Source: Promethearchaeota archaeon (lineage in GTDB: Archaea > Asgardarchaeota > Lokiarchaeia > Sigyniarchaeales > SOKP01). Taken from it: a stretch of 64,000 nt of DNA. Below, one piece after another: positions 49,316-64,000 of the stretch; the first letter of the stretch is position 1; each line of letters starts with the position of its first letter. A program made the position numbers and the translations under genes. Below the pieces are notes generated by a model. That model saw only the letters and a list, made by a program, of their open reading frames with translations, had not been told where the DNA came from and searched no databases. The stretch is from NCBI GenBank assembly GCA_048940445.1, contig JBHLON010000012.1:17426-81425 (forward strand). Direction: 5' to 3'.

Positions 49316-50740
49316 TTATAAGTTTGCTAAAGTGATTTTATCCAGTTCATTAACTAAATCTTCAGCTATGGGTCTCATGGGTTCTTTATTTTCTAAAACT
49401 TTTGCATATTCTTTTGCTCTTTTCCTTATAGATTTAGAACCTAATTCCTTCCATGTATCACGCGTTGTTCTGTCAATTATCGAACTTGGAATAAATAATT
49501 CTTTCTTAAATAACTTTAATGTTAATGGATGAGATAATAGTTCTTGTTTGTTCTCGTATGTCTTAAGAATATCTGCCGCAAATGGTGATCCATAATCTTC
49601 AATACCTTTCAAGAATCTCCGTATCATCCCAATTATTTCATTATCAATTATTAGCTTTTCAATACTTTGCATGGATTCAAAATCTATCATACCTGGTCCA
49701 GAAACCATATTTACACCTGATAAACCCGCTAAAATCCCTCCTATGCCAGCTTCAAATCCTGCTTGCGCATCTGGTAATTTTGAATCGCTTAAAGTCATAT
49801 AAGCATGTGTTGGCAGATTAAGAAATTTACCAATTTCAATATCTCCTATATTAATCATCATAGTTTCAATTGCTCCCATTGGAGTGGTACCTCTTCTCAT
49901 ATCCAAGATTGCGGGAGAACCTCCCCATATTAACGGTGCTCCTTTTCGTATTAACTGAACAATTACTACTCCAGCAAGACACTCTGCACAATGTTGGGTT
50001 ATTGACCCAATTAAAGTAATTGGTGCATTTGCCCCAGCTAAAGGCATTGAGACAAATTCAGAAGGGATCATACTTTTAGCTGCATCAACTAGAGACTGAG
50101 TTGTTAAATCTGACCATTTTAGTGGAGGACTTGGACAAGCATCAAATATCGCAAGAGGCTTTTTAGCTAAGTCCTGTTCAGATGTTCTACAAGCTAATAA
50201 AATTTCTCGCATAATTTTGAAGCTTTCTTTACGGAATGTCCCAGTAATAACAGGTTTATAACAATTAGATAATGCCAAGTATAGACGATGCCAATCTTGA
50301 GCTTCTTTAGGCACATCCTGATAAATGATCGCAGTGCTTTGGGCATCAATAAATTGCAATTGTTCAACAATTTTTGAGAAACGGATGAAATCATTTGATA
50401 CTGCTTCCCTAATTTCCCCAGTATTTTCGTCTAATAAAAAGATTGCTGCGGATCCTGGATCAAAATGAACATTATCGTTGCTTAATAAGAGAAAATCTCG
50501 ACCTTCTCTATCATATAATTTAATTTCAGGAGGTACTGATTTCAGACATTTTTCTACTAAATCTGATGGAATAAAATATCGAGAATCTTTTTCTGGAATT
50601 CCATGTGCTTTAAACATTTTCTTAGCTTCTTCATTTTCTAAGAAAATTCCTTGATTTTCAAGGATATCTTTTGCTTCCTCAAAAATTTTAAGTTTATGGT
50701 CATCATCTAATAACTTGATATTTGGTTTTAAAATTGTCAT
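49316..50740 (-). CDS. MttB-superfamily (non-pyrrolysine) methylamine:corrinoid methyltransferase
   Basis: PSPPLKW, GANAPITLIG, GAPLIWG, DMRRG, LSDSKLPDAQAGFE; no in-frame TAG. Confidence 0.88.
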   Translation of the reverse strand: MTILKPNIKLLDDDHKLKIFEEAKDILENQGIFLENEEAKKMFKAHGIPEKDSRYFIPSDLVEKCLKSVPPEIKLYDREGRDFLLLSNDNVHFDPGSAAIFLLDENTGEIREAVSNDFIRFSKIVEQLQFIDAQSTAIIYQDVPKEAQDWHRLYLALSNCYKPVITGTFRKESFKIMREILLACRTSEQDLAKKPLAIFDACPSPPLKWSDLTTQSLVDAAKSMIPSEFVSMPLAGANAPITLIGSITQHCAECLAGVVIVQLIRKGAPLIWGGSPAILDMRRGTTPMGAIETMMINIGDIEIGKFLNLPTHAYMTLSDSKLPDAQAGFEAGIGGILAGLSGVNMVSGPGMIDFESMQSIEKLIIDNEIIGMIRRFLKGIEDYGSPFAADILKTYENKQELLSHPLTLKLFKKELFIPSSIIDRTTRDTWKELGSKSIRKRAKEYAKVLENKEPMRPIAEDLVNELDKITLANL

Positions 50741-50746
50741 ATTTTA

Positions 50747-51643
50747 TCACTTTTTAATCTGAGAATTTATATAATTTTTAATCTCTTTTATTGACTCAGG
50801 AGATGTACCACAACATCCCCCTACTATTTTAGCACCAGCTTTTATAATCTCAGCAATATCTCTTCCAAATTCCTGCACGGGCTGTTCATAATATGCTATA
50901 CCCCCTGGTTCTACTTTTGGGTTACCTGCATTGGGTTTAATAGAAAAAGGTATACTTGTGAGTTTACCTATTTCTACAGTTAAATCAATCATATCTTTAG
51001 AAGCGAGGGTACAATTACTACCAATTACATCTACTTTTTCTCTTTCAATTTTCTCTATACATTGATGCAATGAGTGTCCCATAATTGTAAAAAATCCTCT
51101 TTTAGTCTTCTTATAGGTCATAGAACTAATGACTGGTTTATTGGAAAGTTTTTTTATTGCTCTTATAGCTGCAACCATTTCATCTATATCCGATATAGTT
51201 TCAATGTGCCATAAATCGACTCCTTTTTCAAGATACTTTACCTGCTCTAAATAGCTTGAGTACCATTGTTCAAACGTTATTTCCCCTATTGGAGGTTTGA
51301 ATTCTCCGGAGGGCCCAACATCTCCTACTACTAAATGCTCAGGTGGACAGACTTTTCTTAAGTTTTCCAGAGCATTCTCATTTATTTCTTTAATACGATT
51401 TTCAAGCTTATATTTTCTCAGATTTAAAATGCTAGACCCAAAAGTATTAGTTTGGCACATATCTGATCCTGCATCATAGTAAGATTCATGGATTTTTGAG
51501 ACTATATCAGGTTTTTCAATATTCAAAAGATCCGGAAGTTTTCCTGGTGTAATTCCGTATTTGAAAATTTCAGTACCCATTCCACCATCAAATAAAATTA
51601 CTTTTAAATCATCTTTTAGCCACTTTTCAAATAAATTCGTAAT
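50747..51643 (-). CDS. Homocysteine S-methyltransferase (stand-alone MetH Hcy-binding domain)
   Basis: VILFDGGMGT requires a start upstream of ATG 51580 (ATT 51643 after GGAG); TNTFG, GDVGPSG, ET, GSNC, PNAG, GGCCGT. Confidence 0.88.
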   Translation of the reverse strand: MTNLFEKWLKDDLKVILFDGGMGTEIFKYGITPGKLPDLLNIEKPDIVSKIHESYYDAGSDMCQTNTFGSSILNLRKYKLENRIKEINENALENLRKVCPPEHLVVGDVGPSGEFKPPIGEITFEQWYSSYLEQVKYLEKGVDLWHIETISDIDEMVAAIRAIKKLSNKPVISSMTYKKTKRGFFTIMGHSLHQCIEKIEREKVDVIGSNCTLASKDMIDLTVEIGKLTSIPFSIKPNAGNPKVEPGGIAYYEQPVQEFGRDIAEIIKAGAKIVGGCCGTSPESIKEIKNYINSQIKK

Positions 51644-51657
51644 ATCATCTCCAAAAT

Positions 51658-52311
51658 CTAATTGCTTTTTTCTATTATACTTTTCACTAACTTTACAGCT
51701 TCTATAGCATTATCAGCATAACCATCTGCTTTGCATTCATCCACCCAACTCATAGTTACTGGAGCACCACCAAATATAACTTTAAATTTATTCCGAATAC
51801 CTCTTTTGTTTAAATTTTCAATCAATCTTTTTTGACCAATCATTGTGGTGGTTAATAAAGCAGATACTCCAATTATATCTGCATTTTGGTCAATTGCTAT
51901 ACTGATAATTTTATCAATAGGTACATCAGCACCTAAATCATATACTTCAAATCCATTTGCACTAAGCATTGTTGCAACGATAGTCTTACCAATAGAATGA
52001 ATATCCCCTTCTATTGTGGCCATCACCACTTTTCCTGATTTTATCTCTCCTTTATTCTTCTTTAAGTGTGGTAAAAGAATTTCCATTGATTCTTGTACAA
52101 TATTCCCTCCTAACATCAACTCGGGCAAAAAGAATTCCCCTTCCTCCCATAAGTTTCCTATTCGACGGATTCCTGCCCCAAATCCTTTTTCTATTACACT
52201 TAATAAATCCGATTTCTCTTTTACTGCTTTATTTGCTAAGTAAATTACTTTATCTCTATCTAAACTAACGATAGCGTCTGAGATTTCTATAAAAAATTTC
52301 TCCTCGGACAT
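51658..52311 (-). CDS. Corrinoid (B12-binding) methyl-carrier protein, MttC/MtbC-like
   Basis: Cap domain FLPELM; GDIHSIGK, SALLTTT, GGAP. Confidence 0.92.
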   Translation of the reverse strand: MSEEKFFIEISDAIVSLDRDKVIYLANKAVKEKSDLLSVIEKGFGAGIRRIGNLWEEGEFFLPELMLGGNIVQESMEILLPHLKKNKGEIKSGKVVMATIEGDIHSIGKTIVATMLSANGFEVYDLGADVPIDKIISIAIDQNADIIGVSALLTTTMIGQKRLIENLNKRGIRNKFKVIFGGAPVTMSWVDECKADGYADNAIEAVKLVKSIIEKSN

Positions 52312-53128: not shown

Positions 53129-56122
53129 TTAAATATAATTTTTCCGTTTTCTTAGAATTATTATCATACTCACTCCAATGATTCCCATTATTATTAAAAT
53201 ATCATATCCTGGAATACCTGGTTGTGGAGGCGGAGGTATTTCTACTAATTCTACTAAAATTGAATTAACATTTTCAATGTTCCCTACATTATCAATTGCA
53301 TAGTATGAGATATTATAATAACCAAAAGCGTATCCAGATAAATCAAATTCCCCAGTATAATCATTCCAAGTTGAATCATTAATTTTATATCTAATTACAA
53401 AAACTCCTGACCCTGTCCCATCGCTTGCTGTTAATGTGAAAATCGTAGAAACATTTACATCAACAGTTCCACTGTGAGGTATGAATAATATTTGCGAGCT
53501 AGGTACTTCAACATCTTTATATATAGTTACGTCTGCAAAAGCTAAAGATCCTAAAGTATCATTTGCATAAAATCTAATAATGACTGGACCAGTAGCGCCT
53601 ATTTTGTCCCACTCGGTTTGATCAATAGTTCCTGTTAATCCGGTAAATGTAATGTTAGTAATCCCACCATCTATGGTATACCATGTAGAATTCAAGTTTA
53701 ATTCGAAAATAGAAATATCAAAGTTTGGAGCACTACTCCCAAAAAATTCATTTGCAAGTGGCGCATTTATTGTAATCTGAGGCATACTAGTATCCTTAAT
53801 GATTAGCACTCCTACAGAACCTATATTACCAGCAGAATCATTTGCATAGAAAATCAAAGTTAGGGCTCCATCAGAAAGTTTATCCCATTCTGTTTGATCA
53901 ACTGTTCCTGTTAATCCAGTAAATATAATATTAGTCACTCCCCCATCTATTGTGTACCAAGTTGTATCCAAATTCGGTTCAACAATCGAAATATCAAAAT
54001 TTGGAGCTATATTTCCAAAATTTTCTTCATGTGTTGGTACATTAATTACAATCTGTGGATTAGTAGAATCTTTATTTATAACTACGTCTTTATGACCAAT
54101 ATTTCCAATTGTATCATTTGCATAGAAAGTCAAGGTCACTGGAACATCTGAAAGTTTGTCCCATTCAATTTGATCGATTGTTCCTGTTAATCCGGTAAAT
54201 GTAATATTAGTCACTCCCCCATCTATAGTATACCAAGTATAATCCAAATTGGGTTCGACAATGGAAATGTCAAAATTTGGAGCATTACTTCCAAAAAACT
54301 CGTTTGTAAGTGGAGTATTTATTGTAATCTGGGGGATACTAGAATCTTTATATATATTCACATCAGCATGTCCAATATTACCCACAGAATCATTTGCATA
54401 GAAAGTTAAGGTTACTGGAACGTCTGAAAGTTTATCCCATTCAGCTTGATCGATTGTTCCTGTTAATCCGGTGAATGTAATGTTATTCACTCCCCCATCT
54501 ATGGTATACCATGTAGAATTCAAGTTTAAATCGAAAATATAAAGGTCAAAGTTTGGAGCACTGCTTCCAAAAATTTCTGAATTAAGCGGCGCATTTATTG
54601 TAATTTGTGGATCAGTAGCATCTTTATATATATTCACATCTGCATGTCCAATATTACCAGCAGAATCATTTGCATAGAAAGTTAAGGTTACTGGAACATC
54701 TGAAAGTTTATCCCATTCAATTTGGTCGATTGTTCCTGTTAATCCAGTAAATGTAATATTAGTAATTCCCCCATCTATTGTATACCATCTAGAATCTAAA
54801 TCTGAATCTATAATTGAAATGTCAAAATTTGGAGCTGTACTGCCAAAAATCTCATTTTCATTAGGTGAATTTATACTTATTTGAGGAATCAAGTTATATT
54901 TTACTAAACACATATTATCATCGCTTTCTCCTCCTACATACACATTTTCATTAGAGTCTAAAGCAATCCCATAAGCTGCTGTATAATCTTTATCCCATCT
55001 AACAAAGCCTTGGGAATCACCAGACGTATTGTATTTTAACAAACCCAGATAAGAATTTACGGTCATCATATTATCTTGTCCAGTGTAACATGCAAGATAA
55101 ATATCCTCTGATGAATCTAGTACAATATCTCTAGCTCTAACTTCTCTATTCCCCCAATATCCAATTTCATTCCAAGTTTGATTATACAACTCAACCCCTA
55201 AAGAGTCAAATTTTACTAAAGCTACACTAGGATAATAAGTTGTTGGATGTGTTCTCTCTCCAGCAATATACACATTATCAGAAGAATCAAAGGCGATGCC
55301 ATATGCATAATTGTTGCCAAAAGCACCCCACGTGCGATTCCATAATAATGTACCTCCGCTATTATATTTTACAATATTCCACTGAAGGCTTCCAATGAAA
55401 CTTGTAGTAGTTCCGACCATATATACATTATCAGAATTATCAGTACCAACAGTATAAGCAATATCACTGCCACTTAAACCCCATGTGCGATTCCATTGTA
55501 ATGTTCCTGCATTATCATATTTTATTAAAACCATATCTTCATTTCCAGCGCCCCAACTTTCTGTTTCTCCCACTAAATACACATTATCTGATGAATCCAC
55601 TGTTATCCCATATATTCTCTCATAATTGCTCCCACCCCAGATACGAGACCATTGAATAGTTCCTAGGCTATTATATTTAACCAGAAATAAATCAAAAGCA
55701 CCCAATCCCAAAGTACCATATCCTCCCATATAAACATTATCAGAAGAATCAATTACTACTCCAAAAGATCGTACATCATTAACTCCATCCCATATACGTG
55801 ACCATATTATGTTTCCTAATGTATCATATTTTATTAAAGCAGCCTGATATCCAACGTAGATATCCCATGTACGTCCTGTAATATAAATAGCGTCTGAAGA
55901 ATCAATAGCAATATCAGAACCCACTGCACCCTGTCCCATTAAGTCCCACGTACGATTCCATTCATATCCAACTTCCTCATCCAAGGATGCTATTGATAGT
56001 ATTTGTCTTCGTTCACTTTGATATCTATCATATAGATTGATATCACTTATTAAAGCTGGATAGAATGAAAGCATCGTGCATACTATAAGTAACCCTAAAT
56101 AAACCGTACTTCTTTTTTTCAT
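53129..56122 (-). CDS. Large surface protein: signal peptide, SBBP-like beta-propeller, five Ig-like repeats, Loki-CTERM-like anchor
   Basis: About 7 DSSDNVY..WNRTW blades; repeated WYTIDGG..FYAND; C-terminal PGIPGY-TM-RKRK. Confidence 0.85.
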   Translation of the reverse strand: MKKRSTVYLGLLIVCTMLSFYPALISDINLYDRYQSERRQILSIASLDEEVGYEWNRTWDLMGQGAVGSDIAIDSSDAIYITGRTWDIYVGYQAALIKYDTLGNIIWSRIWDGVNDVRSFGVVIDSSDNVYMGGYGTLGLGAFDLFLVKYNSLGTIQWSRIWGGSNYERIYGITVDSSDNVYLVGETESWGAGNEDMVLIKYDNAGTLQWNRTWGLSGSDIAYTVGTDNSDNVYMVGTTTSFIGSLQWNIVKYNSGGTLLWNRTWGAFGNNYAYGIAFDSSDNVYIAGERTHPTTYYPSVALVKFDSLGVELYNQTWNEIGYWGNREVRARDIVLDSSEDIYLACYTGQDNMMTVNSYLGLLKYNTSGDSQGFVRWDKDYTAAYGIALDSNENVYVGGESDDNMCLVKYNLIPQISINSPNENEIFGSTAPNFDISIIDSDLDSRWYTIDGGITNITFTGLTGTIDQIEWDKLSDVPVTLTFYANDSAGNIGHADVNIYKDATDPQITINAPLNSEIFGSSAPNFDLYIFDLNLNSTWYTIDGGVNNITFTGLTGTIDQAEWDKLSDVPVTLTFYANDSVGNIGHADVNIYKDSSIPQITINTPLTNEFFGSNAPNFDISIVEPNLDYTWYTIDGGVTNITFTGLTGTIDQIEWDKLSDVPVTLTFYANDTIGNIGHKDVVINKDSTNPQIVINVPTHEENFGNIAPNFDISIVEPNLDTTWYTIDGGVTNIIFTGLTGTVDQTEWDKLSDGALTLIFYANDSAGNIGSVGVLIIKDTSMPQITINAPLANEFFGSSAPNFDISIFELNLNSTWYTIDGGITNITFTGLTGTIDQTEWDKIGATGPVIIRFYANDTLGSLAFADVTIYKDVEVPSSQILFIPHSGTVDVNVSTIFTLTASDGTGSGVFVIRYKINDSTWNDYTGEFDLSGYAFGYYNISYYAIDNVGNIENVNSILVELVEIPPPPQPGIPGYDILIIMGIIGVSMIIILRKRKNYI
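53520..54895 (-). repeat. Five tandem ~276-bp (92-aa) intragenic repeats
   Basis: EWDK-encoding segments recur about every 276 nt (~53607, 53883, 54159, 54435, 54711) with high DNA identity. Confidence 0.9.
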
Positions 56123-56495: not shown

Positions 56496-57200
56496 TTATA
56501 CTTCTTCATCAAGTTCGGGCTTTATTTTTAAAGATTCAATGATATTAATTATGTCTTCAGCGATTTCATACCTCTGGGCTCTATATTTATCTCGATTTAA
56601 ATGCTTTTCAACTTTTAACGGTATACCAATTTTTACACGCATTCCAGAACCACTTATCATATTAAAGAGCTTTGTTTTTTCAGAGTATATCGCTAATGGA
56701 ATAATAGGTGCCATTCCAGCAACTGCAAATTTAATAATCCCCGCCATTGCTTTTACTTGAGTTTCGCGATCCAACTTTGATTCAGGTGTCATTGCCACAA
56801 GATCTCCAACTTCATTCAAATAATGAAAAACTTTATCGATTGGTTCAGTGTCTTCCTTATCATATGTACTTCTGAACATACCAAGTGCTTTTAATACAGG
56901 TCCATAAAGTTGATGTTTCATTAATTTATGATGTACCATAAAATGAATTCGCCTACCAGACACCTGACTTATGATCGCCATGTCTCTTAATGCATTATCA
57001 CTAATCGTAGTTAATATTGCTTTTCCTCTTAAGGGAATATTCTCTTTTCCTTCAATTTTTAAGTCAGCAAAAAGTGCTAAACCCGCCCAACTAAGTCCCT
57101 TAATTGAGGCATAAAGGACATCATTTATTAATTCCTTACTAAAAAGTTGGTCTTTTCCTTTTGTTTCCGGTTCTTCAGTTGTTTCTACCATTTTTATCAC
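56496..57200 (-). CDS. PlsC/lysophospholipid acyltransferase-fold protein lacking the catalytic His (probable start ATG 57191)
   Basis: IEGKENIPLRGKAIL, PES (for PEG), PIIPLAI, VKIGIP; HX4D replaced by ISDNALRD. Confidence 0.75.
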   Translation of the reverse strand: MIKMVETTEEPETKGKDQLFSKELINDVLYASIKGLSWAGLALFADLKIEGKENIPLRGKAILTTISDNALRDMAIISQVSGRRIHFMVHHKLMKHQLYGPVLKALGMFRSTYDKEDTEPIDKVFHYLNEVGDLVAMTPESKLDRETQVKAMAGIIKFAVAGMAPIIPLAIYSEKTKLFNMISGSGMRVKIGIPLKVEKHLNRDKYRAQRYEIAEDIINIIESLKIKPELDEEV

Positions 57201-57219
57201 ATCTCATTTTTAATTTTCA

Positions 57220-57414
57220 TTATAATTTATCTATAAAATCATTTACCTCCTCCATTCGTCTCTCGTAATATTCTTTCAATTCCTTTTCGGATACGAATGT
57301 TGGAATTACTTTTTCTAAAAAAATATCAAATATTGTTGATAATTTTGTCTTATGGTGAAGAGTCTCAAGAAACTCCTCCCCTAATTCTTTTAAATTTTTA
57401 ATAAATTCTGTCAA
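57220..57414 (-). CDS. Small hypothetical protein within the activase operon
   Basis: TTG after GGAGG; tightly packed between co-oriented genes. Confidence 0.6.
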   Translation of the reverse strand: MTEFIKNLKELGEEFLETLHHKTKLSTIFDIFLEKVIPTFVSEKELKEYYERRMEEVNDFIDKL

Positions 57415-57432
57415 ATTACTTCTTAAACCTCC

Positions 57433-58458
57433 TTAAGTTACGTTATCCCATTTACCGCATCTAGATCCCCATCTAGCGATTACTTGATTTCCATATTCCG
57501 GCATTTTGACCTGGACAATCTCACAATTATTGGGGCAATCTCCACAGTTAAAAGCAGAAGTCTTGAATTCTATCTCTGCTACTTCTAAGCCTCTAAAGCT
57601 TGTTTCCTGCTCATGTTCTCGATAATAGTCTCTGACAAGTATTGCCATGCCTAAAGCGCCCATGAGAACATTGTACTTCGGTACAATGACTTTAACTTTT
57701 AAATGACGTTCAAAGGCTTCTATCATGCCCTTATTGTAAGAAACTCCTCCTTGGAATACAATGGGTTCTTCTAACTCTTTTCCCTTGGCTAAATTATTCA
57801 AATAGTTTCGAACCAAGGAATCACATAACCCTGCAATTATATCTTCCTTGCTATATCCTGCATTTTGTTTATGGATCATATCAGATTCAGCAAAAACAGT
57901 ACATCTTCCTGCAATACTCAGAGGATTTTTCGATCGAATTGCATAATCTCCAAAATCTTCAATAGGTATGCCAAGCCTAGCTGCTTGATGATCCAAGAAA
58001 GAACCTGTTCCCGCAGCACATACCGAATTCATCGCAAAATCTACAATAATTCCATCTCTGAGAATAATAATCTTTGAATCTTGACCGCCTATCTCAAGAA
58101 TAGTTCGCACGTCGGGATACATTGATTGTGCTGCAACAGCATGAGCAATAATTTCTGTTTTTGCTAGATCCCCCCCCACCACTGCCTTTGTTAAATATCT
58201 TGCTGAACCAGTCGTACCACAAGAACGTATTGCGTAATTCTTCAGTTCAGGTTTCTCTTCAATCTTATTCCGTAGCTCAGCCATACCCACTTTAGCAGAT
58301 TCTATAGGAGAACCCTCATTACGTAAAAAAACACTTGTTAGAACCTTTCCATCTGTATCCATTAAAACAAATTTGCAACTGACACTCCCAATATCAATTC
58401 CTAAAAAACAATCCTTTTTTTCTTTTTCAATCCTTACATCATCAGAAACTTGGACCAT
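57433..58458 (-). CDS. CoA-substrate-specific enzyme activase (HgdC/BadFG ASKHA ATPase), copy B
   Basis: GIDIGSVS, TTGSAR, EIGGQDSK, MNSVCAAGTGSFL, RCTVFAES, GGV; C-terminal CxxCxxxC..C. Confidence 0.9.
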   Translation of the reverse strand: MVQVSDDVRIEKEKKDCFLGIDIGSVSCKFVLMDTDGKVLTSVFLRNEGSPIESAKVGMAELRNKIEEKPELKNYAIRSCGTTGSARYLTKAVVGGDLAKTEIIAHAVAAQSMYPDVRTILEIGGQDSKIIILRDGIIVDFAMNSVCAAGTGSFLDHQAARLGIPIEDFGDYAIRSKNPLSIAGRCTVFAESDMIHKQNAGYSKEDIIAGLCDSLVRNYLNNLAKGKELEEPIVFQGGVSYNKGMIEAFERHLKVKVIVPKYNVLMGALGMAILVRDYYREHEQETSFRGLEVAEIEFKTSAFNCGDCPNNCEIVQVKMPEYGNQVIARWGSRCGKWDNVT

Positions 58459-58470
58459 GGTATCACTTTA

Positions 58471-59658
58471 TTATTGGCTTTGAATAATTTGATAACATTC
58501 TTTATAAAAATTACTCCCATAATCATGGTATACATTTTCTAAATCTTGCTTTAAATACTCCCTATTTTGATAAAGCTTATGCTCACGACGAGCATACATA
58601 AGGTCCACAAATGCTTCTAATCTTGTTTTAAATCCCTCCATCCCCGATTGCTCATCGAAAGAGAAATAGATAATTGGTAAGTCGTATACTTTTTTAAGTT
58701 TATTAGTTATAATTGTTCGAGCCGTCACCTCTGGCATACAGGTGAAAGGATATTGATGTACAAAACCATCAAAGCCAGCTCGAGCCCTATCAATATATTC
58801 TCCTAAAACCCATATACATTCCCCCCCGATATCCATTGGAACATAAGGTTTAGCCAAGTGTTCTAACCACTTCCTATGATAATTCAGATGGAATTTATGT
58901 ACAACCCAATCATATAAACTTAAATTTTGATGGATTTCAACCTGCATTTCACCTAACTTACGTCTTATATCTAAATTGACATAAGGTTCTAAAGAGATAT
59001 GAATTTCTCCTGCTATTGCGACCTTTAGTGGATTTCGAGTTTTATCAACATCAATTTGATTAAATTCATCCTTAATAACATTCTTAAAGTTCCTTAAACC
59101 TTTTAAGGTATTAGTTTCATCAAGCTTAATTAATAAATTTTTTACAAGTTTAGTAGTATCTCCTTGAGTGCGCTCATATGCCCGAAATAAACCTTCTGCT
59201 GTCTGTATATCGTTCAATAGTTTTGCTTTTTTTAGGAAAAAAATAACTGCTTTAAGAAATTTTGAGTAGATAAAGGGATCCCTTCTACCAGTCACCTCTT
59301 GGAGAGTCTTGACCCAATGGAATTCCAGAAGATCTGCTTGGTCAAGGGGTATTAATGTTATATTCTTATATCCCATATCCTTTAGAATTCTCTCCTGCAC
59401 GGAAGCATAAAATCCGAACCTACAAGGTCCACAGTCAATCGCCATGACTAATGTATCTGCTCCTTTCTCAATTGCGTTTACAAAATCCCCTATTGTCGCC
59501 TTGAATGGAAAACAAACGAACTCTGGAGATTGCTTAACACCGATTTTGATTGCCTCACGATTTGTTGGATCGGGAATGACCACATCTAAATCAAGGCTTG
59601 TAAAGAGTGTTTTAAAGGCGACCCAATTGGGACCCATATTAGGGAAGGAAATTAACAT
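58471..59658 (-). CDS. 2-hydroxyacyl-CoA dehydratase / PlsR-like reductase subunit, copy B
   Basis: SPEFVCFPFK, GPCRFG, GEI, IGGE, PFTCMPE, DEQSG..TRLEAF. Confidence 0.8.
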   Translation of the reverse strand: MLISFPNMGPNWVAFKTLFTSLDLDVVIPDPTNREAIKIGVKQSPEFVCFPFKATIGDFVNAIEKGADTLVMAIDCGPCRFGFYASVQERILKDMGYKNITLIPLDQADLLEFHWVKTLQEVTGRRDPFIYSKFLKAVIFFLKKAKLLNDIQTAEGLFRAYERTQGDTTKLVKNLLIKLDETNTLKGLRNFKNVIKDEFNQIDVDKTRNPLKVAIAGEIHISLEPYVNLDIRRKLGEMQVEIHQNLSLYDWVVHKFHLNYHRKWLEHLAKPYVPMDIGGECIWVLGEYIDRARAGFDGFVHQYPFTCMPEVTARTIITNKLKKVYDLPIIYFSFDEQSGMEGFKTRLEAFVDLMYARREHKLYQNREYLKQDLENVYHDYGSNFYKECYQIIQSQ

Positions 59659-59842
59659 TTTAATTCTAAGAAATTTTACCTAGTCAAGTATTTGATCAAA
59701 ACTATGAAATCAAATAACTCATTCTAAAATAAAAATTTACCCATTATAAACAGATTATCAATCGTATGATACTTTTTATAAAAATTTCAACAATATTTAA
59801 TAATCTCCTTCAAAGAGATTTCACTAGATACAAAATAGCCTC

Positions 59843-61177
59843 TCAAAGGTTAATAAGAGATTCGATACCAAAAAACGAATTTCTTGAAAAAAACTCGAGT
59901 CCATTCTTAACAGTGAATCCTACATCTAATTTCTTTGTTGGATTCAGCATTGTTAAAAGGAATGACATTGGTTTTTCAATACTAGACACAAAATATTCAA
60001 AATTGGATTTCGGTTTAAAATATATGTTTTTTATTTCATCCGGGACTACATACTTGACATCTCTAAACAAAGGATTAGACTTTTTGTTACCAATCATTAA
60101 ATCATGAAATGCTTCGATTCTTGTTCTAAGTCCTTCAAAACCAGAACTTCCATCAAGACTAAAATGAATATGGGGCATGTAAAACTTGTCCATGTTTTTT
60201 TCAGCTTCTAACATTCCCATGAGGGATATTTCAGGCATGCAAGTAAATGGGAATATATGGACAAAACCATCAAAACCTTTTTCTTGAGACTCAAGATAAG
60301 CTCCTATGTTCCAAACTGCTTCTCCGCCAATATCCATTGGAATATACATTTTAGCACTATGTTCAAGCCGTCTTCTTCGTTTGCTGGCATTAAGTTTGTA
60401 CATGACCCAATCAAAGACATCATACTGCTTGTGAACCTCGATACCCATGAGGCCTAATTCTCCCATCAGATCATAATTAACCCATTTCTCCAACATGACT
60501 TGGATTTCCCCAGTATAACAAACCCTCAAAGGTTCCATTTCCTTATCAATAGGAATCTTGCGAAAATTTTCATCTATCGTTCTATCAAAATTAGATAATT
60601 TCATCAAATTATTTTCGTTATCAAGTAAATTCATCAAAGTATGAACTACTTTGGTAGTCATTGATTTGTTTTTTTCTCGACATCTAACAAGTCCTTCAAT
60701 ATGGCTTATTCTTTCAACATAGTATGCTTTGACCAAGAACAAGAGTGTGTTTCTTAAAATTTTATAATCATCAAATTTTCTTCCTGTTCTTTTTTCTAAA
60801 TCACGAAATATCATTAGCCATTCAAGATTTCGCAGATCATCTTGACTCAGATAAAACATTCTAACATCCTTGAATCCCATATTTTTCATGATTCTTTTTT
60901 GGACAACAGCATACATTCCTGCTCTACAAGGGCCGTGGTCAAAAATCATCATAAAATCTTTAACATCATAATTACGATACAGGTTTATCATTTCACCAAG
61001 AATGACTTTAAATGGAAAACAAACGAATTCAGGAGAATTTTTGACTCCTTCACTAACGATTTCAGTGTTTACTAGAGGGGGTTCAACAACTTCAATACCA
61101 GGAAGATCATGGAATAAACCTTTGAAAAAAATATAGCTCCAACCCATTCGTGAAAATGAAACTCTAACATTTACCAT
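59843..61177 (-). CDS. 2-hydroxyacyl-CoA dehydratase / PlsR-like reductase subunit, copy A
   Basis: SPEFVCFPFK, GPCRAG, GEI, IGGE, PFTCMPE, TRIEAF; hydrophobic C-terminal tail. Confidence 0.8.
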   Translation of the reverse strand: MVNVRVSFSRMGWSYIFFKGLFHDLPGIEVVEPPLVNTEIVSEGVKNSPEFVCFPFKVILGEMINLYRNYDVKDFMMIFDHGPCRAGMYAVVQKRIMKNMGFKDVRMFYLSQDDLRNLEWLMIFRDLEKRTGRKFDDYKILRNTLLFLVKAYYVERISHIEGLVRCREKNKSMTTKVVHTLMNLLDNENNLMKLSNFDRTIDENFRKIPIDKEMEPLRVCYTGEIQVMLEKWVNYDLMGELGLMGIEVHKQYDVFDWVMYKLNASKRRRRLEHSAKMYIPMDIGGEAVWNIGAYLESQEKGFDGFVHIFPFTCMPEISLMGMLEAEKNMDKFYMPHIHFSLDGSSGFEGLRTRIEAFHDLMIGNKKSNPLFRDVKYVVPDEIKNIYFKPKSNFEYFVSSIEKPMSFLLTMLNPTKKLDVGFTVKNGLEFFSRNSFFGIESLINL

Positions 61178-62202
61178 TTACCGCACCTACTATTCCATCG
61201 TGCAAATATCCTATCATCCTTTTCTCTTCCAGTTACTCTACTTTTATCTTCTTCCCTGACAAGGTATTTAACTGTACATCTATTTGGACAATCAGGACAG
61301 ACAAATGAACCTGGAGCCAAGTTCATTTCACTAACTTTTAGGCCATGAAAAGAAGATATCTGTCCATTTACATGTTCCTTTGCCAAAATGGCTGAACCAA
61401 ATGCTCCCATCACATAAAAGTTTTCATGAATAATGACTTCATACCCCAATTCTTCTTCAAAAGCATTTTTTATTCCGGAATTTGCTGCAACTCCACCCTG
61501 AAATACGAAAGGCGGGAGGAGTTTTTTCCCTTTGCAAACATTATTCAAGTAGTTTCTAACAAGAGCTTTACACAATCCCTTGATAATTGATTCTTTAGAA
61601 TATCCTTCTTGTTGTTTACTGATCATATCAGATTCGGCAAAAACTGTGCATCGTCCTGCAATTGAAACCTCCTCTTCTGCCCGAAGAGCATAATCCCCAA
61701 ATTCTTCAATTGGAACCTTGATCCGAATTGCTTGGTGATCTAGAAAAGAACCAGTTCCGGCAGCACAAACACTGTTCATGTTAAAATCTGTTACGATGCC
61801 ATTTTTCATCAATATAACTTTGCTGTCCTGTCCCCCGATTTCAAGAATTGTTCTCACGTCAGGGGTATAAGTTGAAGCTCCAATTGCATGAGCAATTATT
61901 TCAGGTTTTGCGATATCAGCACCAATAAGTGCTTTTATTAAATACCTAGCAGAACCTGTTGTCCCAACACCACAAATACTTTTTTCGATGTTATCGGGAA
62001 TGACTTCTTCCATGTATTTTAGATTTTCTTGTGTAGAAACAATGGGAGAACCATCATTTCTAGTCCAAGTAGCATACAATAATTCATTTCTCTCATTAAT
62101 TATTGCACATTTCGTGGAGACACTTCCGACATCGATTCCTAGATATAACTTGTCATCCACATCATCTGAAAGAATATTCTTGATAAATTCTGGTTCATTC
62201 AT
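61171..62202 (-). CDS. CoA-substrate-specific enzyme activase, copy A
   Basis: GIDVGSVSTK, EIGGQDSK, CAAGTGSFL, CTVFAES; C-terminal CPDCPNRC..C. Confidence 0.9.
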   Translation of the reverse strand: MNEPEFIKNILSDDVDDKLYLGIDVGSVSTKCAIINERNELLYATWTRNDGSPIVSTQENLKYMEEVIPDNIEKSICGVGTTGSARYLIKALIGADIAKPEIIAHAIGASTYTPDVRTILEIGGQDSKVILMKNGIVTDFNMNSVCAAGTGSFLDHQAIRIKVPIEEFGDYALRAEEEVSIAGRCTVFAESDMISKQQEGYSKESIIKGLCKALVRNYLNNVCKGKKLLPPFVFQGGVAANSGIKNAFEEELGYEVIIHENFYVMGAFGSAILAKEHVNGQISSFHGLKVSEMNLAPGSFVCPDCPNRCTVKYLVREEDKSRVTGREKDDRIFARWNSRCGKW

Positions 62203-64000
62203 CTGTATTTCTTCCTCCTTATCATTTCGAGAAAAGATTCTACTCTTGTAGTTATTTGAGATTCTCCAGTGTGTTCATCTAATGTGAGATCAACAAAAGG
62301 TTTATCTTTCATGTCAAAATCCTGCATTACCAATTCTTGAATTAAAGAATCAGGACCACATGCAAAAGAAATCAAGAAAATACCTCCATCAATCTCTTCA
62401 TTATGGATAACATAATCAGATAATTGCATCAATTCATCTTCATTATCCCAGAAATTGCAAAGATTATCATCAATTTCAACTCTTCTTGAGAAGATTTCCT
62501 TTGGAGCATTTTCAACAGTTACAACATCAACAAAATTGGATTTGAGAATATCCATTAATCCATGATTAATAATTGGTTCATAAGTATTGTATGGATGACC
62601 AAGAACCATTAATGAAAGTGGATAATTTTCATAATCTTTGTTAAGTTTAGGTCGAAATCTTTTCTTAAACTTATAATTTGGATATTTTTCAAAAGGATAC
62701 ATTTTGTAAAGTGCATCAGGAACAAGAATTCCATCCTCAATCAACTCATGGAATTCTTCAAGTTTTTTATATCCATTCTCATACGCAAGTTTTGATTCTT
62801 CTTTTGATTTACCTAATGTTTTTCCAAAATCTATTGCTGATTTCATCATTGAATGTTCCCTGGCATTAAAAGTCCATTCAATAACGGGAATATTAGAAAC
62901 TGCTGAGTGTTGAGTGACATCTGGAAGGATCAGGAATTTCGGACAATAATAATGATCAGGACTTTTACTAATGAGTCTTGGAACAAATATAAAATCTAGA
63001 TCGGGGTGATTTCTCGATAAATAATTTACATGACCATAATGAATCTTGACTGGAATGCATAAATCGGTTGCAGATTGATTAGATCCGTTGGTAAGAATTT
63101 CTTTGTTTGTTTCTGGACTCACAATAACTTCGCAACCAAGACTTGTAAGCATTCCTTCCCATAATGGAAAATACTTGTAGAAATACAGGGAACGTGGTAT
63201 ACCTACCTTCAGTTTTTTCGTCTTTTCAGTCTTCTTCTTATAATTCGTCTTTTCATACAAGTTTCGAAATAGGTTCTTGGGATCCGTTCGTTCTTTCACT
63301 TTATCGTATAATTTCTTGTTATATACCTTCCAGAACAAGTCTTCCTCGTAGAAATTGTGAGTTATCAAGGTTTTCATTCCCCTGAGCTCATGAACCTTTT
63401 CTTCTAGCGCTTTATAGAAGTTAAATCCCTTTCTTTTTTGTTCGAACCCGTAGATGGCAAAATCTATGAATAGCTCATCCTCGATGGGAGCGATCATGTC
63501 TTGATTGACCCACGGGTAGAACTTGTACCCATCTAGTTTGTTTTTTTGCATGCGGTAAGGGACGATCCAAACCGGGAAATAATCAAATAACTCCAGGTAC
63601 CAATTGAAAAATTCTTCCGCGTGAGTGAATGGTATGAAGACATCAACAATCACGTCCGGTTCTCCCCCCTTCTTAGTTAAAAATGGCAATCGTTCGCTGA
63701 TCTTAAGAATATTTGTCGATCCAAGTATATAGGGCCCTACTAACCACCGGACTACTTTATTCTCAAAAATTCCTCCAGCAACATTCCGTATCGACCAGTG
63801 GCAATCTGCATCATACCTGAAAAAATAATCTATGGTGAAGAGGAAGTCTCGCTTTCTTTTCATCGCACTTTTGTAATAAATATCGTAGAAATATTTACTC
63901 TTGTAAGGAGCTTCCTCCTCATTAACGAAGCTGGCAACGCAGAGTACGTTCATATTCTCGGAGAAGATAAGCCCGTCCATCATTTCAATATCCTGCTTTT
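62199..64000 (-). CDS. Fusion of FAD-linked oxidoreductase (DHCR24/VAO-like; N-terminus beyond window) with DUF2229-type activase-associated reductase domain
   Basis: DYFFRYDADCHW, DVFIP, PVWIVP, KTL..Y..VKERTDP..LYEK, then KVGIPR..CIPVKIHYGH..CPK..GHPY..FACGPD..DEHTG..TRVE; frame open to 64000. Confidence 0.8.
   Translation of the reverse strand, partial: KQDIEMMDGLIFSENMNVLCVASFVNEEEAPYKSKYFYDIYYKSAMKRKRDFLFTIDYFFRYDADCHWSIRNVAGGIFENKVVRWLVGPYILGSTNILKISERLPFLTKKGGEPDVIVDVFIPFTHAEEFFNWYLELFDYFPVWIVPYRMQKNKLDGYKFYPWVNQDMIAPIEDELFIDFAIYGFEQKRKGFNFYKALEEKVHELRGMKTLITHNFYEEDLFWKVYNKKLYDKVKERTDPKNLFRNLYEKTNYKKKTEKTKKLKVGIPRSLYFYKYFPLWEGMLTSLGCEVIVSPETNKEILTNGSNQSATDLCIPVKIHYGHVNYLSRNHPDLDFIFVPRLISKSPDHYYCPKFLILPDVTQHSAVSNIPVIEWTFNAREHSMMKSAIDFGKTLGKSKEESKLAYENGYKKLEEFHELIEDGILVPDALYKMYPFEKYPNYKFKKRFRPKLNKDYENYPLSLMVLGHPYNTYEPIINHGLMDILKSNFVDVVTVENAPKEIFSRRVEIDDNLCNFWDNEDELMQLSDYVIHNEEIDGGIFLISFACGPDSLIQELVMQDFDMKDKPFVDLTLDEHTGESQITTRVESFLEMIRRKKYR

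What the first reader, a model, noticed from the sequence alone, without database searches (positions are those of the whole stretch)
56496..64000. Split PlsA/PlsR (plasmalogen synthase) or Ger-like cluster beside a PlsC-like gene: candidate bacterial-type ether-lipid pathway in an Asgard archaeon
Seen: a co-oriented run of DUF2229-type reductase domain, activase A, reductase A, reductase B, activase B, small ORF and acyltransferase-fold gene. Established: anaerobic plasmalogen synthase (PlsA/PlsR of Clostridium perfringens) and glycerol ester reductase Ger (Thermotoga maritima) are built from two BadFG/HgdC-type activation domains plus DUF2229/HgdD-like reductase domains. They convert acyl esters of phospholipids to (vinyl) ethers. 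Inference: the same domain inventory is split into separate genes, and the lipid-related neighbours favour a glycerolipid substrate over amino-acid fermentation. This would imply fatty-acyl-derived ether or hybrid lipids, which bears on the lipid divide and eukaryogenesis.
Basis: partly seen in the sequence, partly recalled or inferred. Interest (0 to 1): 0.85.

Follow-up and report, generated by a model that had tools for sequence, protein, structure and literature searches.

The report
Split ether-lipid reductase operon in Lokiarchaeia
A Lokiarchaeia (Asgard) genome carries two split copies of the bacterial PlsA/PlsR/Ger-type enzyme that turns lipid esters into ethers, inside an operon with acyltransferase genes that is conserved across dozens of related species, giving a defined gene set for testing whether these archaea make bacterial-style ether lipids.

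Summary
In detail: seven co-oriented minus-strand genes with the stated domains lie at 56496-64000.

Four corrections:
1. The first gene is cut by the contig end. Full-length orthologues (803-837 aa) fuse a DHCR24-like FAD domain to the DUF2229 module.
2. The genes are two paralogous three-part sets (RedB, RedA, one activase each), not one enzyme in pieces.
3. Same-genus genomes show what lies past the contig end: a second RedB, a tandem-domain PlsC-type acyltransferase with both HX4D motifs, and a HAD hydrolase.
4. The acyltransferase-fold gene in the window lacks the catalytic His in all 61 orthologues.

Homology: RedB corresponds to Red1 and RedA to Red2/PlsR of fused Asgard Ger-like proteins (hhalign 98.6%). 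The Cys triads are conserved.

Synteny: RedA2-activase-small ORF-acyltransferase-like is present in 52 of 56 Promethearchaeota loci with enough flank. The genome's canonical 2-hydroxyacyl-CoA dehydratases lie elsewhere.

Best reading (about 0.55): ATP-driven Fe-S reductases convert acyl esters made by the neighbouring acyltransferases into alk(en)yl ethers.

Ger and PlsC homologues in Asgard archaea are already published. The split form, the operon linkage and the FAD fusion were not found in the searched literature. No activity has been tested.

The parts
63237..64000 (-). g1, C-terminal part of a DHCR24-like VAO-type FAD domain; the N-terminal ~210 residues are lost at the contig end
   Evidence: Window end is the contig end. 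Orthologues of 803-837 aa carry PF01565. The window ORF aligns to residues 213-812 of L033 at 94.7%. Model of the G159 orthologue's FAD domain (L033): pLDDT 92.7; best folds are cytokinin oxidase and DprE1. Nearest Atlas clusters are named Delta(24)-sterol reductase.
62199..63236 (-). g1, RedB1 module (full DUF2229 plus HGD-D tail), fused to the FAD domain; corresponds to Red1 of PlsA/Ger
   Evidence: DUF2229 155.6 bits. 24-27% identity to residues ~624-946 of fused 1395-1454 aa Asgard proteins. Cys309, Cys347 and Cys542 align with conserved Cys in all RedB/Red1 sequences compared.
61171..62202 (-). g2, Act1: BadF/BadG-type ATPase activase with a C-terminal Cys-rich tail
   Evidence: PF01869 159 bits, TIGR00241 186.6 bits. 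92% identical to the activase of the stand-alone trio in L002.
59843..61177 (-). g3, RedA1 (444 aa): Red2/PlsR-equivalent catalytic subunit of set 1
   Evidence: 42% identical to g4. RedA HMM 368.9 bits. 957 representatives at E<=1e-3, mostly ~360 aa or the C-terminal half of 671-770 aa proteins; five of these scanned with Pfam are RedB-RedA fusions.
59659..59842 (.). 184-nt intergenic seam where the g1-g3 trio joins the ancestral operon
   Evidence: In other genera RedB2 directly precedes RedA2. The trio stands alone in L002.
58471..59658 (-). g4, RedA2 (395 aa): Red2/PlsR-equivalent subunit of the ancestral set
   Evidence: Invariant C49, C79, C307. hhalign against the Red2/PlsR-like profile: 98.6%, E 1.2e-15, 327 columns. 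Model pLDDT 91.4; the top 20 folds are all DCCP, HadBC or benzoyl-CoA reductase subunits.
57433..58458 (-). g5, Act2: BadF/BadG-type activase of the ancestral set
   Evidence: PF01869 166.5 bits. Cys147, 186, 305, 308, 312 and 334 are invariant in 68 orthologues. 33-35% identical to the second activation domain of fused forms, with the alignment reaching the tail in three of four.
57220..57414 (-). g6, conserved 64-aa Cys-free protein of unknown role
   Evidence: 56-98% identical orthologues in the same position at nearly all loci with flank. No family hit.
56496..57200 (-). g7, acyltransferase-fold protein lacking the catalytic His (probable pseudo-acyltransferase)
   Evidence: PF01553 34.2 bits. 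No HX4D; the motif reads TT[IV][SAT]xNxxRD in 61 orthologues, while the motif II Arg and motif III PE are kept. It is the only PF01553 hit in the assembled genome.

Best explanation
The locus is the downstream two thirds of a Lokiarchaeia operon for fatty-acyl-derived glycerolipids.

Ancestral gene order, seen intact in other genera: HAD-type hydrolase, tandem-domain PlsC-type acyltransferase, RedB, RedA, activase, 64-aa protein, His-less acyltransferase-like protein.

In this genus a second paralogous trio (FAD::RedB1, Act1, RedA1) is inserted between RedB2 and RedA2.

Proposed mechanism (inferred by homology with PlsA/PlsR and Ger):
- Each RedB/RedA pair is the split equivalent of the Red1/Red2 catalytic core, with one Fe-S cluster per subunit on a conserved Cys triad.
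- Each activase acts as a homodimer and uses ATP to inject a low-potential electron.
- The core reduces the sn-1 acyl ester of a glycerolipid made by the neighbouring acyltransferase to an alk-1-enyl or alkyl ether.

More speculative:
- The DHCR24-like flavin domain fused to RedB1 reduces a C=C bond, for example vinyl ether to alkyl ether.
- g7 is a non-catalytic lipid-binding subunit.
For: Homology:
- Full DUF2229 in RedB.
- RedA aligns colinearly with Red2/PlsR-like modules.
- Cys triads are conserved between split and fused forms.
- The activase has the two bridging-cluster Cys and a Cys-rich tail shared with the second activation domain of most fused forms. The tail is absent from the genome's 261-300 aa HgdC-like activases.
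- RedB-RedA fusion proteins exist.
- The published Ger architecture is BBDHDDH (PMC13159169).

Context:
- The tandem acyltransferase (two HX4D, TIGR00530 154 bits) lies directly beside RedB in at least 25 genomes from 8 genera.
- 52 of 56 loci keep RedA2-Act-small-g7.
- A sister family has AT-AT-RedB-RedA-Act.
- Independent trios have an intact acyltransferase overlapping RedB by 4 nt.
- All acyltransferase- or FAD-linked RedA sequences form one clade, support 1.0.
- In this assembly the only PF01553 gene is in this cluster.
- A PlsY homologue is present elsewhere in the genome.
Against: - No split, single-activase member has been characterised.
- I could not obtain the T. maritima, D. alkenivorans or C. 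perfringens sequences, so the relation to proven enzymes rests on Pfam, the published architecture and fused Asgard homologues.
- The activase tree leaves split activases, fused second domains and HgdC-like activases unresolved.
- Split RedB-RedA pairs in another Asgard family, and a Firmicutes operon, have no acyltransferase nearby. Two sit beside aminotransferases.
- g7 lacks its catalytic His.
- One same-genus genome (100% complete) keeps the acyltransferases but has no Red or activase genes.
- Published lipid analysis of cultured Lokiarchaeota reported only archaeal lipids (quoted in PMC13400652).
- No clear G3P or G1P dehydrogenase was found with the two Pfam models tried.
Confidence: 0.55

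Rival explanations
1. The system is lipid-linked but does different chemistry. The Red/activase enzymes act on another carbonyl of an acylated lipid or precursor: an sn-2 ester, a lyso-lipid, an acylated archaeal lipid, an acyl thioester or a hydroxyacyl chain. The product is not an ether. The FAD domain acts on an isoprenoid or acyl double bond.
For: - The acyltransferase linkage shows only that an acylated molecule is involved.
- The closest solved folds of the FAD domain, cytokinin oxidase and DprE1, both act on prenyl-bearing substrates.
- GGGPS is present, so isoprenoid ether lipids are presumably made as well.
- The split clade is only 24-27% identical to fused Red1.
Against: The only proven activities reported for DUF2229-type enzymes in the papers consulted are ester-to-vinyl-ether and ester-to-alkyl-ether conversion (PMC13159169, PMC12838417). 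The Cys triads and module order are retained.
Confidence: 0.25
2. The system remodels or salvages exogenous bacterial phospholipids or plasmalogens taken from syntrophic partners. It is not part of de novo membrane synthesis.
For: - No clear G3P dehydrogenase was found.
- A same-genus genome has lost the Red and activase genes, so they are dispensable.
- A HAD-type hydrolase is encoded in the operon.
Against: - The tandem acyltransferase with two intact active sites and the PlsY homologue look anabolic.
- No lipase or transporter was seen among the operon genes identified at the loci examined.
Confidence: 0.1
3. The Red/activase genes are CoA-ester dehydratases or reductases of amino-acid or organic-acid fermentation, and the acyltransferase adjacency has no functional meaning.
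For: - The superfamily fold is shared with HadBC, benzoyl-CoA reductase and DCCP.
- Split pairs in another Asgard family sit beside aminotransferases.
Against: - PF06050 scores reach at most 30 bits here, against 105-305 bits for the genome's 11 canonical members, which lie on other contigs, some beside HgdC-like activases.
- No CoA-transferase, ligase or 2-hydroxyacid dehydrogenase was identified among the operon genes.
- The acyltransferase linkage holds across two families and in independent trios.
- The aminotransferase-adjacent pairs form a separate clade.
Confidence: 0.08

Closest known systems
Ger, glycerol ester reductase (Thermotoga maritima Tmari_0479; Desulfatibacillum alkenivorans SHJ90043), PMC13159169
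   Same: - BadF/BadG activation module.
- Full DUF2229 plus HGD-D tail (Red1).
- A second module with only short DUF2229/HGD-D pieces (Red2), as in g3 and g4.
- Predicted oxygen-sensitive Fe-S radical chemistry.
- Fused homologues of 1395-1454 aa occur in other Asgard families.
   Different: - Here the parts are separate genes, with one activase per set instead of a tandem pair.
- RedB is only 24-27% identical to fused Asgard Red1.
- One RedB is fused to a DHCR24-like flavin domain.
- The genes sit in an operon with acyltransferases.
- Activity is untested.
PlsA/PlsR plasmalogen synthase (Clostridium perfringens CPE1194/1195), Jackson et al. 2021 as cited in PMC12838417
   Same: - The catalytic core is divided between two polypeptides (PlsA carries Red1, PlsR is Red2).
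- It belongs to the BCR/HAD family.
- A PlsA-like (978-985 aa) plus PlsR-like (469-474 aa) pair occurs in the same Lokiarchaeia family, and in one same-genus genome it lies inside this very cluster.
   Different: In this window Red1 is also detached from the activase, and the activase is a single domain.
2-hydroxyacyl-CoA dehydratases, class I benzoyl-CoA reductases and the double-cubane cluster protein (PDB 3O3M, 9GAI, 8S02, 6ENO/7YYL)
   Same: The RedA model matches the overall fold at TM 0.43-0.57 and probability 1.0. The activase is 123-134 bits to HadI, HgdC and MbdQ.
   Different: - RedA has no sequence-level PDB hit.
- PF06050 scores are at or below its cut-off.
- The activase carries an extra Cys-rich tail.
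- No CoA-ester pathway genes lie nearby.
PlsC / lysophosphatidate acyltransferase family (PF01553, TIGR00530)
   Same: The tandem acyltransferase of the operon (seen in orthologous loci) has two domains, each with HX4D and (F/Y)PEGT. It is the protein annotated as 1-acyl-sn-glycerol-3-phosphate acyltransferase in Lokiarchaeota MAGs.
   Different: - The tandem-domain architecture was seen only in Asgard archaea among the top 120 hits.
- g7 in the window has the fold but no catalytic His.
DHCR24 / Delta(24)-sterol reductase-like VAO flavoproteins
   Same: FAD_binding_4 plus cap domain. Nearest Atlas clusters and database names are Delta(24)-sterol reductase.
   Different: It is fused to a DUF2229 Fe-S module in an anaerobic archaeon, and the substrate is unknown. 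Stand-alone homologues (40-64% identical) occur in other Asgard archaea, in Spirochaetes and in Anaeramoeba.

Membership tests
PlsA/PlsR/Ger (DUF2229-type ester-to-ether reductases) | BadF/BadG activation module with cluster-bridging cysteines | tested here: met
   PF01869 159 and 166.5 bits. Cys147 and Cys186 are invariant in 68 orthologues.
PlsA/PlsR/Ger (DUF2229-type ester-to-ether reductases) | Two activation domains in tandem on one polypeptide ('BB') | tested here: not met
   Each activase gene encodes one domain. A homodimer, or an Act1/Act2 heterodimer, is inferred and not shown.
PlsA/PlsR/Ger (DUF2229-type ester-to-ether reductases) | Full-length DUF2229 reduction domain followed by an HGD-D tail (Red1) | tested here: met
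   g1: DUF2229 positions 1-216 of 218, 155.6 bits; HGD-D tail 26.6 bits. The Cys triad is shared with fused Red1.
PlsA/PlsR/Ger (DUF2229-type ester-to-ether reductases) | Second reduction/dehydration module (Red2 / PlsR) | tested here: met
   RedA profile against the Red2/PlsR-like profile: hhalign 98.6%, E 1.2e-15, 327 columns. The RedA HMM hits residues ~988-1396 of the fused proteins colinearly.
PlsA/PlsR/Ger (DUF2229-type ester-to-ether reductases) | Groups with the experimentally proven enzymes in a phylogeny | not tested
   Sequences of Tmari_0479, SHJ90043 and CPE1194/1195 could not be fetched with the tools. The only indirect evidence is that PF09989 matches the T. maritima, L. lactis and B. 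thetaiotaomicron control genomes.
PlsA/PlsR/Ger (DUF2229-type ester-to-ether reductases) | Converts sn-1 acyl ester to alkenyl or alkyl ether under anoxic conditions | not testable with these tools
   Needs expression and lipidomics.
2-hydroxyacyl-CoA dehydratase (HgdAB/HadBC) | Full-length, above-threshold PF06050 match | tested here: not met
   17-30 bits, tail only, for g1, g3, g4 and orthologues. The same genome has 11 members at 105-305 bits elsewhere.
PlsC/LPAAT acyltransferase (g7) | PF01553 fold match above cut-off | tested here: met
   34.2 bits against a cut-off of 23.
PlsC/LPAAT acyltransferase (g7) | Catalytic HX4D motif | tested here: not met
   No H....D in g7. The aligned position is Ser or a variable residue in all 61 orthologues, while both domains of the tandem acyltransferase have the motif.
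VAO/PCMH flavoprotein, DHCR24-like (N-terminal part of g1) | FAD_binding_4 domain plus cap domain | tested here: met
   PF01565 53 bits in the full-length orthologue. Model pLDDT 92.7; TM ~0.65 to cytokinin oxidase and DprE1. The window copy itself lacks the N-terminal ~210 residues because the contig ends.

The most novel reading that the evidence does not exclude
Lokiarchaeia encode a complete, self-contained operon that makes bacterial-type, fatty-acid-derived 1-O-alk(en)yl-2-acyl glycerolipids. A tandem acyltransferase builds the diester and a split PlsA/PlsR-like reductase makes the vinyl ether. In some genera a DHCR24-like flavin domain fused to the reductase is the first dedicated vinyl-ether reductase and yields saturated alkyl ethers. 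Close relatives of the eukaryotic host lineage would then make mixed membranes with non-isoprenoid ether lipids.
Probability: 0.3. Interest if true: 0.85.

Novelty: new variant of a known kind. Interest (0 to 1): 0.66.

Why it matters
Whether Asgard archaea make any fatty-acyl, bacterial or eukaryote-like lipids is an open question in the lipid-divide and eukaryogenesis debate. So far it rests on scattered PlsC, PlsY and Ger homologues.

This work joins two of those homologue types (PlsC-type and Ger/PlsA-type) into one conserved operon:
- It contains the protein annotated as Lokiarchaeota 1-acylglycerol-3-phosphate acyltransferase.
- It is found in at least 78 species-level Promethearchaeota genomes.
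- It defines a small gene set that can be expressed anaerobically and assayed by lipidomics.

The work also brings out three further points:
- An uncharacterised, widespread split subfamily of DUF2229 enzymes (957 representatives at 50% identity).
- A flavin fusion that could explain how alkyl ethers, as opposed to alkenyl ethers, arise.
- A natural deletion variant that is useful for comparative lipidomics.

Tried and rejected
- Complex prediction of RedB2 + RedA2 + g7, with g7 as the partner: 'no answer', score 0.00. This is not evidence either way.
- The search for related loci with RedA alignments A1 and A2 failed because no stretch was conserved enough.
- The activase tree did not resolve whether split activases are sister to the second activation domain of fused forms.
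- PF13685 and PF01210 searches for G1P and G3P dehydrogenases gave only weak, non-specific hits. No conclusion was drawn.
- The sigma-70 promoter scan showed no excess and is not relevant to an archaeon.
- The g6 HMM did not detect the small ORF that follows the activase in L015. Pairwise similarity is marginal, E 0.065.
- The 523-aa protein in the acyltransferase/FAD position of L127 has no Pfam hit and no similarity to the FAD domain.
- The idea that the window encodes a single seven-part enzyme was rejected on the paralogy and synteny evidence.


Full report
**What is in the window**

Seven co-oriented minus-strand ORFs fill 56496-64000. Pfam and NCBIfam give:

| Gene | Coordinates | Length | Family result |
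|---|---|---|---|
| g1 | 62199-63983+ | 594+ aa | Full DUF2229 155.6 bits, plus HGD-D tail |
| g2 | 61171-62202 | 343 aa | BadF/BadG activase |
| g3 | 59843-61177 | 444 aa | Weak N-terminal DUF2229 |
| g4 | 58471-59658 | 395 aa | DUF2229 43.7 bits |
| g5 | 57433-58458 | 341 aa | BadF/BadG activase |
| g6 | 57220-57414 | 64 aa | No family |
| g7 | 56496-57200 | 234 aa | PF01553 34.2 bits |

- g1/g2 and g2/g3 overlap by 4 and 7 nt.
- The g4-g7 gaps are 12-19 nt.
- 184 nt separate g3 from g4.

**The first gene is truncated**

- The window ends exactly at the end of contig C104, and g1 is open to that end.
- Its nearest homologues (89-97% identical) are 803-815 aa and carry PF01565 FAD_binding_4 in front of DUF2229.
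- The window ORF aligns to residues 213-812 of the 812-aa orthologue of a same-genus genome. About 210 residues are missing, and the ATG at 63983 is internal.
- The missing N-terminus is not elsewhere in the assembly.

**Two paralogous sets, not one split enzyme**

- g3 and g4 are 42% identical. g2 and g5 are 52% identical.
- In two same-genus genomes (G159, G109) the cluster continues past our contig end. The order there is HAD-type hydrolase, a 559-583 aa protein with two PF01553 domains (174-184 bits), a second RedB (353-358 aa), then FAD::RedB1, Act1, RedA1, RedA2, Act2, the small ORF and g7.
- G109 also has a PlsA-like (Act-Act-Red1, 978 aa) and PlsR-like (469 aa) pair inserted in the cluster.
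- In three genomes from two other genera of the family the order is simply HAD hydrolase, tandem acyltransferase, RedB, RedA, activase, small ORF, acyltransferase-like.
- The trio FAD::RedB1/Act1/RedA1 stands alone in a metagenomic relative.
- I therefore read the locus as an ancestral seven-gene operon into which a second three-gene set was inserted between RedB2 and RedA2. The 184-nt gap is the downstream seam.

**Homology to PlsA/PlsR/Ger**

- Published Ger is BBDHDDH: two activation domains, a full DUF2229 with an HGD-D piece, then short D and H pieces. Ger spans both plsA and plsR (PMC13159169; bioRxiv 2026.06.23.733905).
- Other Asgard families hold fused proteins of 1395-1454 aa with this layout.
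- RedB aligns with their Red1 at 24-27% identity.
- A RedA HMM hits their C-terminal region (about 988-1396) colinearly.
- Profile-profile comparison of RedA with Red2/PlsR-like modules gives 98.6% probability, E 1.2e-15, over 327 columns.
- Three Cys are invariant in RedA (C49, C79, C307). Three Cys in RedB align across split and fused forms.
- The RedA model (pLDDT 91.4) matches only DCCP, HadBC and benzoyl-CoA reductase subunits among the top 20 solved folds.
- Activases keep the two bridging-cluster Cys plus an invariant C-terminal CxxCxxxC...C tail. The second activation domain of three of the four fused or PlsA-like forms aligns through this tail. The genome's 261-300 aa HgdC-like activases are too short to contain it.
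- RedB-RedA fusion proteins exist: five of the 671-770 aa hits scanned with Pfam have this layout.
- The split form is a distinct, widespread subfamily. It has 957 representatives at 50% identity and includes a Firmicutes RedB-RedA-Act operon.

**These are not canonical dehydratases**

- This locus's only hit in the whole-genome PF06050 search scores 28.6 bits.
- The same genome has 11 canonical HGD-D proteins at 105-305 bits on other contigs, some beside HgdC-like activases.

**The lipid link**

- The tandem acyltransferase keeps HX4D and (F/Y)PEGT in both domains and passes TIGR00530 (154 bits).
- It is the protein annotated as Lokiarchaeota 1-acylglycerol-3-phosphate acyltransferase.
- Coordinates put it directly beside RedB in at least 25 genomes of 8 genera.
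- A scan of species-representative genomes with RedA2 found 78 loci, most of them titled Promethearchaeota or Promethearchaeia MAGs.
- 52 of the 56 loci with at least 3.3 kb downstream have activase, small ORF and g7 in order.
- Of 38 loci with at least 4.5 kb of upstream flank:

| What lies upstream of RedA2 | Loci |
|---|---|
| Tandem acyltransferase and RedB2 | 13 |
| The FAD::RedB1 trio | 5 |
| RedB2 only | 2 |
| No cluster gene within the flank | 18 |

- A sister family has AT-AT-RedB-RedA-Act.
- Independent trios have an acyltransferase overlapping RedB by 4 nt. HX4D is confirmed for the L013 acyltransferase.
- In a FastTree of RedA, all acyltransferase- or FAD-linked sequences form one clade (support 1.0). 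It is separate from the clade of another Asgard family, whose pairs lack acyltransferases and twice sit beside aminotransferases.
- In this assembly g7 is the only PF01553 hit.
- A PlsY homologue (120 bits) and GGGPS (180 bits) are present elsewhere in the genome.

**g7 is not a standard PlsC**

- It has no HX4D. The aligned position is Ser or a variable residue in all 61 orthologues. The motif II Arg and motif III PE are conserved.
- I regard it as a probable pseudo-acyltransferase, perhaps a lipid-binding subunit. This is an inference. A complex prediction gave no answer.

**The FAD domain**

- The model (pLDDT 92.7) is a complete VAO-type flavoprotein. Its nearest solved folds are cytokinin oxidase and DprE1, at TM about 0.65.
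- Atlas and database names point to Delta(24)-sterol reductase.
- It occupies the position held by an acyltransferase in sister trios.
- DHCR24 and MurB, both FAD_binding_4 enzymes, reduce a C=C bond; in MurB the bond belongs to an enol ether (established knowledge). On that basis I propose a vinyl-ether or other C=C reductase role. This is speculation.

**Literature**

- Ger homologues in Lokiarchaeota (including Prometheoarchaeum) and Heimdallarchaeota are published (PMC13159169).
- PlsC and PlsY in Asgard archaea are published (PMC6431249, PMC13400652).
- I found no paper that describes the split form, the operon or the FAD fusion.

**Verdict**

The locus is best read as a new variant of a known kind. 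The biochemical function is unproven.

Noticed in passing
G083:C6 (locus L044): A same-genus genome (100% complete) keeps the HAD hydrolase, the tandem acyltransferase and the g7 orthologue about 1 kb apart, but has no DUF2229 or cluster activase genes. It is a natural deletion variant.
   Followed up: partly
G109:C38 (L031/L032) and G008:C90 (L034): A PlsA-like (Act-Act-Red1, 978-985 aa) plus PlsR-like (469-474 aa) gene pair occurs in the same family. In G109 it is inserted inside this cluster, giving three DUF2229 systems in a row. G109 also has a ~4.2 kb insert between Act2 and RedA2.
   Followed up: partly
window 49316-52311 (- strand): An MttB-family methyltransferase (234 bits), a homocysteine S-methyltransferase-domain protein (205 bits) and a B12-binding corrinoid protein lie together. 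This is a probable methyl-transfer module just downstream.
   Followed up: no
window 53129-56122 (- strand): A 997-aa protein with SBBP beta-propeller repeats and a weak Ig-like domain hit lies between the lipid operon and the methyltransferase genes.
   Followed up: no
P0015, P0009, L017, L125: Stand-alone homologues of the FAD domain are 58-61% identical (BLASTP). One is a protein of the anaerobic protist Anaeramoeba flamelloides annotated as 24-dehydrocholesterol reductase. In other Asgard archaea the gene sits beside an MFS transporter and Arf/Ras-like GTPases. Inter-domain transfer is possible.
   Followed up: partly
L132 (G196:C75), L134 (G133:C11): In another Asgard family, split RedB-RedA pairs lie next to class I/II aminotransferases, and one also lies near ornithine cyclodeaminase and a GNAT. 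This hints that this separate clade works in amino-acid metabolism.
   Followed up: partly
L127:657-2228: A 523-aa protein with no Pfam hit occupies the acyltransferase/FAD position upstream of a RedB-Act-RedA trio whose RedB is 74% identical to RedB1.
   Followed up: partly
G000 contigs C101, C96, C38, C3, C50, C77: The genome encodes 11 canonical HGD-D (PF06050) proteins and four HgdC-like activases, a large complement of dehydratase/reductase radical enzymes.
   Followed up: no
record titles: Several loci with 75-88% identical orthologues are titled Odin-, Hermod-, Hod- or Thorarchaeota, or even Nanopelagicaceae bacterium. One of these (L055, titled Nanopelagicaceae) is the same contig as G159:C84, which the genome search places in the window's own genus. 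The public taxonomic labels look unreliable.
   Followed up: no
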